DNA of 64,000 bases from Eledone cirrhosa (taxonomy: Eukaryota): positions 323,764,001-323,828,000 of the forward strand of contig OZ024743.1 of NCBI GenBank assembly GCA_964016885.1, written 5' to 3'. The notes under the pieces were generated by a model. The model was given only the letters and a program-made list of their open reading frames with translations. It did no database searches and was not told where the DNA came from. Both the position numbers and the translations under genes were made by a program. Shown piece by piece: positions 13,073 to 40,165 of this stretch. The number at the start of each line of letters is the position of its first letter. The first letter of the stretch is position 1.

Positions 13073-13251
13073 TCAGGAAGTAGAGTGGCAATCATGAAGA
13101 AAGCTGTTCAGAAAGTCAAACGAGGGACGCCTTGGTGCATTAATGTTCCAGCATGTGAGGGCAACATTGTAAATCTCAGCAGGACAATACTGTGGGCAGG
13201 GCATTCGGTAGCCAGACTGAACTTTCTCAAAGGCCTCTTTGCTTCCCATAC
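13073..13251 (-). CDS. Src-family last coding exon (SMGSKEAFEKVQSGYRMPCP...CW...RRPSFDFLNSFLHDCHSTS*)
   Basis: ORF 13073-13363. GYRMPCP, CW and RPSF motifs; acceptor ttacag; TGA at 13073-13075. Confidence 0.95.
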
Positions 13252-13509
13252 CTGTAAAATAAAACAACATTAAATAAAATAATAATAATAATAATAATAT
13301 TAAAAACACACACAGAAATACATAGCCCAAACCCCAGAACCTACAAATATATACAGCATACAAAAGATAGCACTACTAGGCACTGCACACATATTACGAA
13401 AAGTGCTATCAATACAATAGAAACATCAGCAGAAACTACACTGCTCATACCCAAGGCTCACAGAGCTGTGCTCGGTAAAGTAGTAATGATACACAATAAT
13501 AATAATAAT

Positions 13510-13833
13510 GTTTCTACATTTGGCACAAGGCCAGCAATTATCCCAGTGTATTACTGGTGCTTTATTTTATCGACCCGTAAGGATGAAAGGCAAAGTTAAC
13601 CTAAAAAAAATAATAATGGTTTCTACTTTAGGCACAAGGCCAACAATATTTGGGGAAAGGGTAAGTCAATTTAATTAACCCCAGTGCATTACTGGTACTT
13701 TATTTTATCGACCCCCGTAAGGATGAAAAGCAGATTTGGCCTCAGTGAGATTTGAACTCAGAACTTAAAGGGCCGTAACTATATACCGCAAGCATGTTAT
13801 CCAGCGTTCTACTGATACTGCTAATCCACTACC
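13510..13833 (-). mobile_element. Two copies of the second SINE family (one truncated)
   Basis: Same core sequence. Confidence 0.8.
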
Positions 13834-15284
13834 CTTAATGATAATGAGGAGGATTTCTTCTATTTGCCACATCAACTCGTCTAACCCATGCTAGCATGGA
13901 AAAATAGACATAAAACAGTTATGATGAAGATGATACAAAATAGCACTGCTAGGTACTGTGAATATATTAGATAGAGTACTCCAAAATTATACATATACGG
14001 GGTAGACGTGGGCTCCTTCAGCCATAGGAAAATATCAATCATTCATAATATAAAGCTTAAATGTTCTTACATAAAATTATGTTGGAAGGTTTTAAGATAA
14101 GTATAAATACTTTAAAACAAACAGTTTTGTATTGTAGAACCAAAGACAGTTTCAGGCAGTTTGATATGAAAAGGAGAGTAGTAGACACTCCAAATAGAAA
14201 CTCTGGGTGGAGAGGACTCTTGTGTGCAGTAAAACAACCTCTGTAGTGCTGGTGGCATGAATAATGCATCCAATCCATACTGTAAGATGGTGATAGAAAG
14301 GGCATCCAGCCAGAAAACATGAACATCATCATCATCCCGTCCAACACATGCAAGTGTGGAAAACTGGATGTAAAAATGATGATGATATACATATATATAC
14401 ACACACATACATATACACACACACACACACACACACACATATACATACCAAACATTCAGAAAATAGCACTACTAAGTACAGCAACATATTATGTACACTA
14501 CATTCAATACAATAAAAACGACACTGCACAAAGAGCTTGAGCAGATACTGCACAAAGAGCTTGAGCAGATCTAGCAATTCCATGAATCTACCTAACTGGT
14601 ATTTTATTCATCAATCCTGACATGATGAAAGGCAAAGTTCATTGTCATGGGATTTGAACTCAATCAACTACATTTTGAAAATGCTGCCTTACATTATATG
14701 AAATTGATTTGTCAACCCTGTTCATCTATATCATTAATTTACAGAGAGGTTCTGAAGTAAACCGACAAAAGTGTTAGAGCATTAGACAAAATGTCTAGTG
14801 GCATTTTTCCAGCACTTTGCATCATAATTTCAAATCTTGGTGTATCCTAATTGAATAATATACTTAACCAGTCACCTAGTTTAATACCTCCACATGGCCT
14901 TGGTGTGCCTTTAGAAGAGTACACTCTAATGGAAGCATTCAGGCCTGGTCTCCCTCTTAACAGTCCCAGTGGCTTTGATAAGGGTCATGGGTACTGCACT
15001 CTTGGGCATTTAAGCTTGGCAGAGACCACCCTTCCCCAGATCTGAACACAAACAATTTCACCTGAAGAAAGAGAGAGTAGAAGAAGAATTTTTCCAGTAG
15101 TACACTGGTACTTTATTTATTGAAAAGATGAAAAGCAAAGTTGACCTGGGCAGGATTTGAACTCAGAATGTAATGAGCCAAAATGAATACTACAAAGTTT
15201 TCTATGTGATGTTCTAACGACTGTCAACTCACGACCTTTGGAGGGAAACACTCCAGTTGAAATAATAGTTTGAAAAATACTCAC

Positions 15285-15416
15285 TGTCGTAAGGTTCTTT
15301 GCCATATGAAAATATTTCCATCAACACAATTCCAAAGGACCAAATATCGGCTTTTGTGCTGTATTTGTTGTAGAGTAGCACCTCTGGAGCCATCCACTTC
15401 ACCGCCATCTTCAGGC
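15285..15416 (-). CDS. Src-family exon: P+1/APE/alphaF ([44 protein letters not shown])
   Basis: Manual translation. KWxAPE and DIWSFG motifs; acceptor tctcag, donor gtgagt; 132 bp. Confidence 0.95.
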
Positions 15417-36972: not shown

Positions 36973-37480
36973 CCCTTTAGCATTTAAACCGGCCATATCC
37001 AGCCAGAATTCTCTTACCTCTTTCTGTTTAAACCAGCTATAACTGGCTGCTTATACTTATGTTAAGGTATTTTTCTCAAAATAAATAATATCAAAATCTC
37101 ATAGATTCGATATTATGTAAAAATATAATAGTATATATAGAGTAACGTAAAAATTTAAATTGATAATTGTCATTAAATACAATTCTTTTCCTTTGATGCG
37201 AGAATTTTAGAATTATTGTATATGTAGGCTTATATTCATGTACTTTTAATTTTCATTAACCCTTTAGCATTTACATTATTCTATATATACTATTGTATTT
37301 TCACAGTAAACACCTTATCTTACACAATTATCTCACATACTATTGAATCTTCGAGATTTTGATGTTATTTATTTTGAGAACAATACCTTAAAATCAGTAT
37401 GAGTAGCCAGTTATGGCTGGCTTGAACAGAAAGAGGTGAGAGAATTCTGGCCGGATATGGCCAGTTTAAATGCTAAAGGG
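36973..37480. mobile_element. Two oppositely oriented copies of TTAA MITE family 1
   Basis: 36973-37150 (+, partial) and 37260-37480 (-). Confidence 0.75.
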
Positions 37481-38889
37481 TTTGTTTCTTACAAGTAGGC
37501 ATTGGGGGCTCTAAATGTTCTCGAACCCAGAAACCCTAGTGACTTTAATCTATGCCTGAATTTCAACTTCATTTTATGTGTAGGATAACATTCTTGTAAA
37601 TTTATCATCATTTTTATGTCTACTGCTTCATGCTGGCATGGGTTTGGATGGAATGGTTTGAGACAAAGTTTTTCTGCTGGATGCCCCTCCTGATGCCAAC
37701 TCTTTTAGTTGCCTCATATGACATGCAGGGATATTGTGTACGTATTCTAGAAACCAAGATAAAATGACACAATGCACCAACGGGATTTGAACTCACAGGA
37801 TTACAGCTCATGAACTGAACACCCTAACCACTAACATATGGTTTATGTAAAATAACTTTAGCCACAAGAAGAATTACACGAGGAACGTGGAAGGAAATCA
37901 CTTCTTGTTTTTGAAAATAACAGATTCATCTTCTTCAATTATCTTTGGAAATCATCCAGACTTTCAATAAAGAATATTTTCTCTTCTTTCCTCCCTCCCC
38001 TTTTAAGTGAAGGTCAACAACATTATAACTAGGTGATAGGTTCCTAAATATAGGTGAAAAATAGTTTAAAAACCCACAGCCACCATTAACAGGAAGGAAA
38101 ATTAAATACCATATCATCATCATCACCGTTTTACGTCCGTTCTTCCATGCTAGCATGGGTTAGACGGTGTATATATATATATATATATATATATATATAT
38201 ATATATATATATATATATATATATATCATCATTTAACATCTGTTTTTCCTGCTAGCATACATACACACACCGTATATGATATATAGTTATGATAGTTATG
38301 TATAAGTCACTGCTCCATTTTACATCATTTACAATATACCATATACTTTGAACTGAGGTTTTGTAGATCCAGTAGATAAATCACATACTGGTTTTCACAC
38401 CATATTTTAGTGGAAAAAAGGTGAGAATTATACAAAAGTATGTGTGTGTGTGTGTGTATATATATATATATATAAAATGATCAGGCCTGGCTTCCCTCCT
38501 CTTTGATGTGACATCACGTGTCACTAAAGGGTATACTGTTACTGCCACTTGCCACCAGCAAATGAGAATGTGGGACACCATTTTTGTCTTTCCATCACAA
38601 GGAGGCAAACTCCCGCTAACAAAACGGTGCCACGCCTAATTATGCAATGTGTACTGTCATTACTTAATATTCTGCATGTGGCTGCACCTTTCGGTTCACC
38701 ACCAGCAGTTTGGGACCATGGAAACAGTTGCAGAAGTCCAAATACCGAAACATCTTATCCACACAAAGTTGTCTTCCTTAGTGATTAACGAAAGTGTGCA
38801 CTCTGGCCAGCTGGGTCCGAATTTTAATAATATGAACTACTTAGTTGACCAACCGAAGCTATGTCCATTTATTTTAATTATATATATGT

Positions 38890-39090
38890 ATAGGAAAAGA
38901 GTCAGGACCCCGACGGCTGAGCTCCGGCCGTTTTGACAGCTAGATCCATTTGGGTCTAGCTGCCGAAATGGCTGGAGCTCAGCCGTCGGGGTCCTGACTC
39001 TTTTCCTATTACCCACTCTACTAACCTAAGTATTGAGTACTCTGGTGCGTTATGGTCCACCTGGTTCATTACCACACTTTCTTTGTTTTA
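38890..39090 (+). mobile_element. (TA)n-embedded hairpin element (59-bp arms plus about 80-bp tail), probably Penelope-derived
   Basis: Inverted repeat 38890-39009 with about 5 transition mismatches; tail shared with the 41212 and 63896 copies. Confidence 0.7.
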
Positions 39091-40061
39091 TATATATATA
39101 TATATATATATAATGTACGTATGTGTGTGTGTCTATATTCATGTGTATCCGGCTTAGAATACACTGTATCTCTGCATGTGACTAAAACGATTGGTGTCAT
39201 GAAGGGCATTCAGTTGTAAAACAATGCCTCAAAAAATCCTGTCCAACCCATGCCAGCATGGAAAAATTGAGGTAAAAACGATAATGCTCATATATATATA
39301 CACACACACACAAATATATATATATATATACACACACACACACACACAGACATATTACCTATGGATTATTTACAAATTCCTGGATTTTTTAACTGCTCTT
39401 GCACTGCACCAATCTTTCCCAAACTCCCTCTTCCTTTTTCTCTTTTTTTTTCTTTTCCATTCCCCATTTCCTTCCTCACACACTATGTTCAACCAATTAA
39501 TTAATCTATCAATTGATTGATCAGGTTATTTACCTAATTGCCAAAAACCTTTCATAACATGGTATGTGACCTTATCAATGATATTTCGCCCTCTCTGTTT
39601 CCTTTCCATTCTGGTCTGGTTTCCAGCTTACTCCAGAGAAAAGGAAGGAGTAAGCTGGAAATCAAATCAAGAGGAAGACAGAACAAACAGAGCAAAAGTC
39701 ATTGATAAAGTCACATGTGCAATGAAAGAGCTTCGATAATTAGTTGAATATCAGAATGGTTGATTAACCAACTGAAGGATGGAGTAATTACCAGATTAAC
39801 CTTTAACATGCTGTCGGCAACATATTGAACCATAGAGTAATCTCCCCTTAATACATAATGCATTGTCAGGGGAAATAACTCATAAAAATTACTTGTGTGC
39901 TAAAGGTTAATAAGAAAAACTGATGTGAAACCACAACTGATGCATGTGATTTTATTTGCAGCCTGTTCCTCCAAAAGTATAACAATATCTGGTTCAACAC
40001 ATGATTTCACATCAGGAATCTTGCAAAGCAAATAGAAAAACAAGATAAATTATTTATTTAC

Positions 40062-40165
40062 CTGGAAGAGCCTCTCCTTGGCGGATAAGAAAAGAGCCTT
40101 TATGAAGACCAGGGTGTAGCAGCCATTCTTCAGAAGCATTCCGACTCACTTTTCCAAAATACCAA
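40062..40165 (-). CDS. Src-family (pseudo)kinase, first visible exon: SH2 N-terminal half (WYFGKVSRNASEEWLLHPGLHKGSFLIRQGEALP)
   Basis: Manual translation. WYFG and FLIR SH2 motifs; acceptor ttgtag, donor gtaaat; 104 bp, matching the size I recall for the equivalent vertebrate SRC exon. Not in the ORF track. Confidence 0.93.

What the first reader, a model, noticed from the sequence alone, without database searches (positions are those of the whole stretch)
13073..40165. A Src-family pseudokinase: intact gene with the catalytic and regulatory residues stripped
Seen: seven exons splice in frame with canonical GT-AG sites and no stops. The catalytic loop reads HRN-LGARN (codon AAC at 26614-26616) and DFG reads GFG (GGG at 26560-26562). 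The activation loop is DDPDFNFRK, with Phe at the Src Y416-equivalent position. The Gly loop is GSGQFA, the P+1 loop is KMAVKW instead of KFPIKW, and the W260 equivalent is Phe. The AVK Lys, alphaC Glu, gatekeeper Thr, APE and SH2 FLIR Arg are kept. Established: HRD-Asp is the catalytic base and DFG-Asp binds Mg; HRN occurs in the pseudokinase HER3; vertebrate Src-family members are active kinases. Inference: several coordinated losses in an otherwise conserved frame point to a selected catalytically dead SH2 scaffold or decoy, possibly still binding ATP, rather than a decaying pseudogene or a sequencing error. I know of no described example but cannot search.
Basis: partly seen in the sequence, partly recalled or inferred. 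Interest (0 to 1): 0.9.

Follow-up and report, generated by a model that had tools for sequence, protein, structure and literature searches.

The report
Mollusc Src pseudokinase carrying RING ligase
Octopuses, snails, clams and a chiton share an intact gene in which a Src-type signalling kinase has lost both catalytic aspartates and carries a RING finger where the SH3 domain normally sits, so it likely tags tyrosine-phosphorylated proteins with ubiquitin instead of phosphorylating them.

Summary
Observation confirmed: seven in-frame minus-strand exons encode SH2 plus a kinase domain with HRN and GFG. The next exon upstream, 10 kb beyond the window, encodes a TRIM2/3-type RING finger instead of SH3. 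One spliced 2186-nt contig joins it to the window exons and reads AAC and GGG unchanged. The RING-SH2-pseudokinase is conserved in cephalopods, gastropods, bivalves and a chiton: Asn 31 of 31 and Gly 31 of 31 at the two Asp sites, against Asp 23 of 23 in active relatives. All 10 coding differences from a second species are synonymous. It is neither a pseudogene nor an error. The RING keeps all eight zinc ligands, the linchpin Arg and most TRIM2 dimer residues. Best reading (0.6, inferred, untested): a Cbl-like phosphotyrosine-directed E3 ligase whose dead kinase domain is a docking module. Databases name it an ordinary SRK2/Fyn-like kinase. Eight paper searches found no description, but the main pseudokinase survey could not be read. 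This scan noted the same family before in another genome (e1-8670335).

The parts
40166..64000 (-). window part of the 33.7-kb intron that joins the SH2 exon to the RING exon. The RING exon itself lies OUTSIDE the window, about 9.8 kb past its end (G000:C4:323837830-323838274, minus strand; L012:1349-1793): shared Met, C3HC4 RING finger with TRIM2/3-type flanking helices. The intron holds reverse-transcriptase ORFs and microsatellites.
   Evidence: RING exon: 99% match to the Octopus orthologue; translation and phase-2 donor; on the same 2186-nt X4 contig whose loose end equals window 40136-40165; best PDB hits TRIM2 6e-19, TRIM56, TRIM3. No gene exon in this stretch; RT ORFs
40062..40165 (-). 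SH2 exon 1 (WYFGK; alphaA2 Arg; FLIR betaB5 Arg; betaB7 Ser replaced by Gly)
31880..32044 (-). SH2 exon 2
28378..28542 (-). end of SH2, SH2-kinase linker (family-invariant RS-x-x-W, SH3-docking Pro lost), Gly loop GSGQFA; tandem acceptor 28542/28539
27060..27316 (-). kinase N-lobe: beta3 Lys, alphaC Glu, gatekeeper, hinge
26511..26664 (-). catalytic loop HRNLGARN (AAC at 26614-26616), GFG (GGG at 26560-26562), activation loop DDPDFNFRK
15285..15428 (-). P+1 loop, APE, alphaF; canonical AG acceptor at 15416, alternative TG acceptor at 15428 adding 4 residues
   Evidence: (loose end); both forms among O. sinensis models
13073..13251 (-). alphaG to the end; stop codon a few residues after the last helix, no Y527-type tail

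Best explanation
The gene is a conserved, spliced mollusc RING-SH2-pseudokinase of about 530 residues, descended from a Src-type kinase, that likely works as a phosphotyrosine-directed E3 ubiquitin ligase rather than as a kinase. Shown: domain order, splicing, loss of both catalytic Asp, loss of SH3 and of the C-terminal tail, and conservation of the RING catalytic surface. Inferred steps: (1) the SH2 binds pTyr sites made by the active Src paralogues that the same genome keeps, or by receptors; (2) clustering on a multiply phosphorylated target would pair two RINGs through their flanking helices, which TRIM2-type RINGs need and which here cannot come from a B-box or coiled coil; (3) the RING pair would activate E2~Ub and ubiquitinate the bound target, damping the signal as Cbl does; (4) the dead kinase domain would act as a second docking site through its activation segment, P+1 loop and alphaG face, possibly holding ATP without Mg as a conformational cofactor.
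For: RING exon joined to SH2 exon on one contig. RING Pfam hit in 28 of 32 family clusters and SH3 in 0 of 32; the 4 without RING are two short records (296, 337 aa), one 450-aa record and one model with an unrelated N-terminus (my count from its table). Over 22 aligned orthologues: eight Zn ligands 22/22; Arg at TRIM2 linchpin R64 22/22; Phe at F81 22/22; Leu-His at L39-H40 22/22; Leu at V12 22/22, Leu/Ile at I16, Phe at F20 22/22, Leu at L86 22/22. TRIM2 roles are from PMC9732051 (passages), mapped through the alignment. SH2 Arg alphaA2 and betaB5 29/29. HRD Asp to Asn 31/31 and DFG Asp to Gly 31/31, with Asp 23/23 in active relatives; beta3 Lys, alphaC Glu, catalytic-loop Asn, APE Glu and alphaF Asp 31/31. 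Family-specific invariant residues cluster in the activation segment, P+1 loop, alphaEF and alphaG; pairwise identity there is 0.85 against 0.65-0.72 in the other five regions. Precedents: Cbl and Hakai pair a pTyr reader with a RING (PMC3507883, passages); TRIB pseudokinases present substrate to COP1 (PMC13519141, passages); STRADalpha, with Gly at the DFG Asp, binds ATP without cation and holds LKB1 like a substrate (PMC4718504, passages).
Against: No activity, partner or substrate was measured. A conserved TRIM-type RING core does not guarantee activity: the isolated human TRIM3 RING is monomeric and inactive (PMC9732051). The TRIM2 V89 dimer position is polar here (Thr 20, Ser 2 of 22) and V35 is Ala. 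There is no B-box or coiled coil to drive dimerisation. The SH2 has Gly 29/29 at betaB7 where 18 of 23 active relatives have Ser, which may weaken phosphate binding. The gatekeeper varies and the third Gly-loop Gly is Ala in 29 of 31, so ATP binding is uncertain. Two O. bimaculoides models, one Mya and one Tegillarca model lack part or all of the catalytic-loop region; I read these as annotation gaps but did not check their DNA.
Confidence: 0.6

Rival explanations
1. A non-catalytic scaffold or allosteric regulator. The pseudokinase and SH2 bind active tyrosine kinases or their substrates, and the RING serves as a dimerisation or interaction module, or works only as a heterodimer with a TRIM2/3-type partner.
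For: Strongest conservation lies on the kinase substrate face. TRIM3 RING is inactive alone and rescued by heterodimerisation with TRIM2 (PMC9732051). The genome has related RING genes that look like RING-B-box proteins by eye (L013, L014, L016).
Against: The linchpin Arg, the F81 equivalent and the E2-facing Ile and Pro are invariant in 22 of 22, which a pure dimer module would not need (inference).
Confidence: 0.24
2. An E3 ligase whose SH2 no longer reads phosphotyrosine; targets are chosen by the pseudokinase domain alone.
For: Invariant Gly at betaB7 and a family-specific invariant patch on SH2 alphaA (A, S, W 29/29) suggest a changed SH2 role.
Against: Both pTyr-binding Arg residues are 29/29 and betaC3 keeps a hydroxyl (Thr 29/29).
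Confidence: 0.09
3. A low-activity or atypical enzyme: residual phosphotransfer as in HER3, a new chemistry, or activity restored by A-to-I editing of AAC to GAC, which would give back HRD.
For: beta3 Lys, alphaC Glu and the catalytic-loop Asn are 31/31. HER3 with Asn at this site autophosphorylates weakly (PMC4718504). Three unnamed orthologues close to Octopus have Tyr at the Y416 site. Heavy recoding in coleoids is recalled, not tested.
Against: HER3 keeps the DFG Asp that holds Mg; here it is Gly 31/31, and GGG cannot become Asp by A-to-I editing. The X4 contig reads AAC (contigs drop rare variants). Bivalve, gastropod and chiton orthologues also carry Asn.
Confidence: 0.06
4. Decaying pseudogene, sequencing error or a chance fusion in gene models.
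For: None found, apart from a few database models that lack an exon.
Against: Identical codons in two samples; RING-SH2 joint on one contig; 10 of 10 silent changes; 60-88% identity across 21 orthologues; a full-length 519-aa form on 307 short Logan contigs.
Confidence: 0.01

Closest known systems
Src-family kinases (Src, Fyn, Hck; invertebrate Src64B and SFK types)
   Same: SH2-linker-kinase unit; best PDB hit chicken Src E 1e-102; same intron positions as two active Src paralogues of this genome on C21.
   Different: No SH3, no linker Pro, no Y527 tail, no Gly2 start in the printed models, both catalytic Asp lost, Y416 is Phe in 30 of 31, Src-module GxM and GxKF motifs (PMC8662651) remodelled; RING added.
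TRIM2/TRIM3/TRIM56 RING E3 ligases
   Same: C3HC4 RING with flanking helices, linchpin Arg and most dimer residues.
   Different: No B-box, coiled coil, filamin or NHL hit; RING joined to SH2 and a pseudokinase.
Cbl and Hakai pTyr-directed E3 ligases
   Same: A pTyr reader and a RING on one chain (PMC3507883).
   Different: Canonical Src-type SH2 placed after a TRIM-type RING; no four-helix/EF-hand TKB module (recalled) or HYB domain; a kinase fold is attached. Analogy, not homology.
Tribbles/STK40-COP1 and STRADalpha pseudokinases
   Same: Dead kinase domain used to hold a protein partner (PMC13519141, PMC4718504).
   Different: CAMK- or STE-derived (recalled); the E3 is a separate protein there, fused here.
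HER3 pseudokinase
   Same: Asn at the catalytic-base position, beta3 Lys kept.
   Different: HER3 is a receptor, keeps the DFG Asp and lacks the alphaC Glu; this protein is the reverse at both sites.
RING/U-box-kinase fusions such as plant KEG, plant U-box kinases and MAP3K1 (recalled, no call)
   Same: Ligase and kinase fold on one chain.
   Different: Ser/Thr kinase folds, no SH2, independent origins.

Membership tests
Src-family kinase | SH2 followed by a Src-type kinase domain | tested here: met
Src-family kinase | SH3 domain before SH2 | tested here: not met
   RING exon splices directly to SH2; SH3 Pfam 0 of 32 clusters
Src-family kinase | HRD and DFG aspartates | tested here: not met
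   N 31/31 and G 31/31
Src-family kinase | C-terminal regulatory Tyr tail (Y527 type) | tested here: not met
   chains end 2-6 residues after the last helix motif
Src-family kinase | N-terminal Gly2 myristoylation signal | tested here: not met
   no model printed or 41 starts Met-Gly; the alternative first exons of this species were not read
Src-family kinase | descent from the Src lineage | tested here: inconclusive
   introns match the two C21 Src paralogues and only the last of five kinase-region introns seen in the C9 Src42A-type gene; the tree gives a 100/100 family clade on a 0.98 stem in an unresolved fork of Src-related groups, with a long-branch warning
Pseudokinase (sequence definition) | lacks at least one of VAIK Lys, HRD Asp, DFG Asp | tested here: met
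   lacks two; definition from PMC4718504
Pseudokinase (sequence definition) | no measurable phosphotransfer; nucleotide-binding class | not testable with these tools
   needs assay
RING E3 ligase | C3HC4 zinc ligands and linchpin Arg | tested here: met
   22/22 each; Pfam zf-C3HC4 above its cut-off
RING E3 ligase | ubiquitin transfer from E2 | not testable with these tools
   needs assay
TRIM | RING + B-box + coiled coil | tested here: not met
   no B-box family hit; RING to SH2 spacer is about 50-80 residues
Cbl | TKB module (4H, EF-hand, variant SH2) before a RING | tested here: not met
   no Cbl_N hit; order is RING then canonical SH2

The most novel reading that the evidence does not exclude
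A mollusc-wide Src descendant that swapped its output from phosphate to ubiquitin: a single-chain coincidence detector in which the SH2 reads phosphotyrosine, the dead kinase groove selects the target protein (perhaps an active Src paralogue or its substrate), nucleotide binding sets the conformation, and target-driven clustering switches on a TRIM-type RING that has no coiled coil. It would be a second, independent invention of Cbl-like control, built from the kinase it regulates.
Probability: 0.3. Interest if true: 0.85.

Novelty: new variant of a known kind. Interest (0 to 1): 0.68.

Why it matters
Src-type kinases are the textbook active writers of phosphotyrosine. A lineage kept across four mollusc classes with both catalytic Asp gone and a RING in place of SH3 is a clean natural case of a writer turned into a predicted ubiquitin-based eraser. 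It offers a compact test of how a TRIM-type RING is switched on without a coiled coil, and of kinase domains as substrate receptors. It is misnamed as an active SRK2/Fyn/Yrk kinase in public annotations of aquaculture and neuroscience model molluscs (oyster, mussel, abalone, Aplysia, octopus), so expression studies may have misread it.

Tried and rejected
Complex prediction of two RING copies with Zn: no verdict (score 0.39, one control 0.47); not used as evidence either way. AlphaFold2 on a 10-row alignment gave a poor model (pLDDT 53, pTM 0.36), so no fold search was run; a second job on a deeper alignment could not be queued. ESM Atlas: only generic SH2-kinase and kinase clusters for the full protein and no usable hit for RING+SH2; neither shows novelty. 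The look-up of sequencing runs: no RNA holder listed on record; X4 is read as RNA only because its contig is spliced. RAD-seq run X6 had no reads on the stretch; X1 had no contig on the RING exon; neither is a test. No raw RNA reads were available, so low-level editing at the Asn codon is untested. Non-mollusc members: none named among the best 120 of 1738 hits, and only one family representative among the best 150 of the 50%-identity library, none of the other 149 with a RING by a pattern screen; a 50% cluster can hide members and 8 of 32 clusters are unnamed, so restriction to molluscs is likely, not shown. No SH3 or RING exon inside the window. A formal dN/dS was not computed. The sister group could not be resolved (22 of 60 rows dropped for the careful tree: 10 long branches, 12 near-duplicates or extra rows). 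Paper searches without a description. The oyster kinome paper has no RING, SH2 or pseudo in its main text; its table lists six Src-type entries, one at 46.8% identity (EKC22027.1) that may be this gene, unchecked. Yeung 2021 has no mollusc or RING mention in its main text; its supplements were not read. Kwon 2019 (PMC6997932) was not held; its tables may list this family.
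Full report
Setting. The window lies at G000:C4:323764001-323828000 of a 3.0-Gb genome. The spliced product is 96% identical to an Octopus sinensis protein, so the animal is an octopod.

Observation. Seven minus-strand exons with AG/GT ends at all six introns give 383 codons and a stop. 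The Asn codon AAC and the Gly codon GGG are at the stated places. Alignment to chicken Src (2PTK, E 1e-102) confirms that they replace the HRD and DFG aspartates, that Phe stands at Y416 and W260, and that the beta3 Lys, alphaC Glu, gatekeeper Thr, APE and SH2 FLIR Arg are kept (Src residue numbers recalled). A search of the genome with the catalytic exon found one 100% match and then 65% or less (11 matches among 55 candidates), so the gene looks single-copy. DNA contigs of run X2 and a spliced contig of run X4 (another sample, same species and study) show 0 other letters over the exon.

The missing part. Close homologues carried RING Pfam hits, bar one odd model (10 of 11). A search of the genome with the orthologue's RING found a 99% match on the same strand 10 kb beyond the window end. 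This exon ends in phase 2 and the window's first exon supplies the third base. The 2186-nt X4 contig that skips the 395-nt intron also covers the RING exon without differences, and its loose end is window 40136-40165. RING-SH2-pseudokinase is thus one spliced product in this species, with no SH3 between. From the shared Met it is 529 residues, or 533 with the TG acceptor (my arithmetic). Two further X4 contigs end on the 5' edge of the RING exon, which fits the alternative N-termini of O. sinensis models.

Range and selection. A profile of 22 orthologues returned 32 family clusters among the best 120 of 1738 hits (my count). The 24 named ones are molluscs: Octopus, the chiton Liolophura, bivalves (Solemya, Mytilus, Saccostrea, Pinctada, Argopecten, Mya, Mercenaria, Dreissena, Sinanodonta, Tegillarca) and gastropods (Patella, Lottia, Haliotis, Nucella, Aplysia, Elysia, Plakobranchus, Biomphalaria, Arion); 8 are unnamed. 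RING hits: 28 of 32; SH3: 0 of 32. In 31 family sequences (models lacking the catalytic region and duplicate isoforms left out) against 23 active Src-type relatives: HRD site Asn 31/31 against Asp 23/23; DFG site Gly 31/31 against Asp 23/23; beta3 Lys, alphaC Glu, catalytic-loop Asn, APE Glu, alphaF Asp 31/31; Y416 site Phe 30, Tyr 1. A second species (run X5) differs at 8 coding sites in the RING exon and 2 in the catalytic exon, all silent. A full-length 519-residue form stands on 307 Logan contigs of at most 4.7 kb and a 529-residue form on 16 of at most 3.0 kb; I infer these are transcripts. Pseudogene and error are excluded.

Origin. The careful tree (38 of 60 rows) makes the family one clade (100/100) with the chiton first, on a stem of 0.98 changes per column and with short inner branches: fast remodelling once, then constraint. 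Its sister among Src-related groups is unresolved and the tool warns of long branches meeting. Introns say more. Two active Src paralogues on C21 (HRDLAARN/DFG and HRDLRAAN/DFG) break at the same places as this gene (read by eye; the second SH2 exon of the first paralogue was seen only as a partial match), whereas the C9 Src42A-type gene shares only the last of the five kinase-region introns seen. The RING is closest to TRIM2, TRIM56 and TRIM3 among solved structures (E 6e-19 to 7e-17, next 2e-9), and related RING genes exist in the genome. Inference: a duplicated non-42A Src gene gained a TRIM2/3-like RING exon in place of its unique and SH3 exons before chitons and shelled molluscs split.

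Anatomy and mechanism. The RING keeps all eight Zn ligands, the linchpin Arg, the F81, L39 and H40 equivalents and hydrophobic residues at TRIM2 V12, I16, F20, F82, L86 and L90 in 22 of 22; TRIM2 needs R64 and L86 for activity and works as a dimer (PMC9732051, passages). Against: V89 is Thr/Ser, and the same paper shows that the TRIM3 RING, with an intact core, is inactive alone. The SH2 keeps both pTyr arginines (29/29) but has Gly at betaB7. Src autoinhibition is gone: no SH3, linker Pro (23/23 in active relatives) replaced by Ser 31/31, no tail Tyr, and the GxM and GxKF Src-module motifs (PMC8662651, passages) are changed. In their place are family-specific invariant residues in the linker, the activation segment, the P+1 loop, alphaEF and alphaG, the face where kinases bind substrates (established knowledge). 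Pairwise identity from catalytic loop to P+1 is 0.85, against 0.65-0.72 elsewhere in the family; the 0.69 of the active set is not like for like, since it mixes paralogues. With both Asp lost, phosphotransfer is improbable: HER3's nucleotide site uses the DFG Asp for Mg, while STRADalpha with Gly there binds ATP without cation and holds its partner like a substrate (PMC4718504, passages). I therefore commit to a pTyr-directed E3 ligase with a docking pseudokinase (0.6). Rivals: scaffold or allosteric regulator with a non-autonomous RING (0.24), E3 with a pTyr-blind SH2 (0.09), residual or edited catalysis (0.06), artefact (0.01). Every functional step is inferred; none was measured.

Comparison with what is known. 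It works like Cbl or Hakai in pairing a pTyr reader with a RING (PMC3507883, passages) and like Tribbles-COP1 in pairing a pseudokinase with an E3 (PMC13519141, passages), but it is a member of neither. It fails the Src-family tests for SH3, tail, myristoylation signal and catalysis, and the TRIM test for B-box and coiled coil. It meets the sequence definition of a pseudokinase.

Novelty. Databases call it SRK2-, SRK3-, Fyn-, Fgr-, Yrk- or LCK-like kinase, twice TRIM2/3. Eight full-text searches (listings and abstract starts only) gave no description. The oyster kinome (passages and supplement 1 rows) and the holozoan tyrosine kinome (passages) do not mention it in the text searched. The library lacks most subscription papers, Kwon 2019 was not held, and unseen supplements may list the family. 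An earlier report of this scan reached the same reading in another genome (e1-8670335); I had stated mine before seeing it, and it is not independent evidence.

Verdict. Real, conserved and stranger than first reported. New variant of known kinds; interest 0.68.

Noticed in passing
window 15417-15430 (-) and 26509-26511: The X4 contig splices the catalytic exon to a TG acceptor 12 nt upstream of the AG (GT-TG intron), adding four residues inside the activation segment; O. sinensis models have both forms. GT-TG introns are known in human (PMC4176328, passages). Based on one contig's 30-letter loose end.
   Followed up: partly
window 28537-28545 (-): TAGTAG tandem acceptor; contig length and the orthologue's two Val residues point to use of the upstream AG (28542).
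   Followed up: partly
L012:1765-1795: Two more X4 contigs (631 and 508 nt) end on the 5' edge of the RING exon, suggesting alternative first exons; not located.
   Followed up: no
window 19184-21460 (-), 52045-52782, 55333-57540, 58066-59382 (+): Four reverse-transcriptase ORFs in the introns, each with a weak PHD-finger hit at the end of or just after the RT domain; two have open frames over 700 codons. Probably non-LTR elements (recalled likeness).
   Followed up: partly
window 18834-19133 and 22416-22715: 99% identical direct repeat, 3582 nt apart, around the intronic RT ORF; similar sequence recurs near 47800-49600 on the minus strand.
   Followed up: no
G000:C21:14903900-14918500 (-) and C21:4631300-4646000 (+); loci L048-L053: Two divergent but catalytically intact Src paralogues; the second has the HRDLRAAN loop and an unusual Gly loop (DSGCFG).
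   Followed up: partly
P0020, P0021, P0025: Unnamed orthologues about 88% like Octopus have Tyr at the Y416 site; P0020 is the only exception among the 31 rows counted.
   Followed up: no
window 226-753 (+): 176-codon open frame made of about 23-residue tandem repeats; no Pfam hit above cut-off; probably a minisatellite.
   Followed up: no
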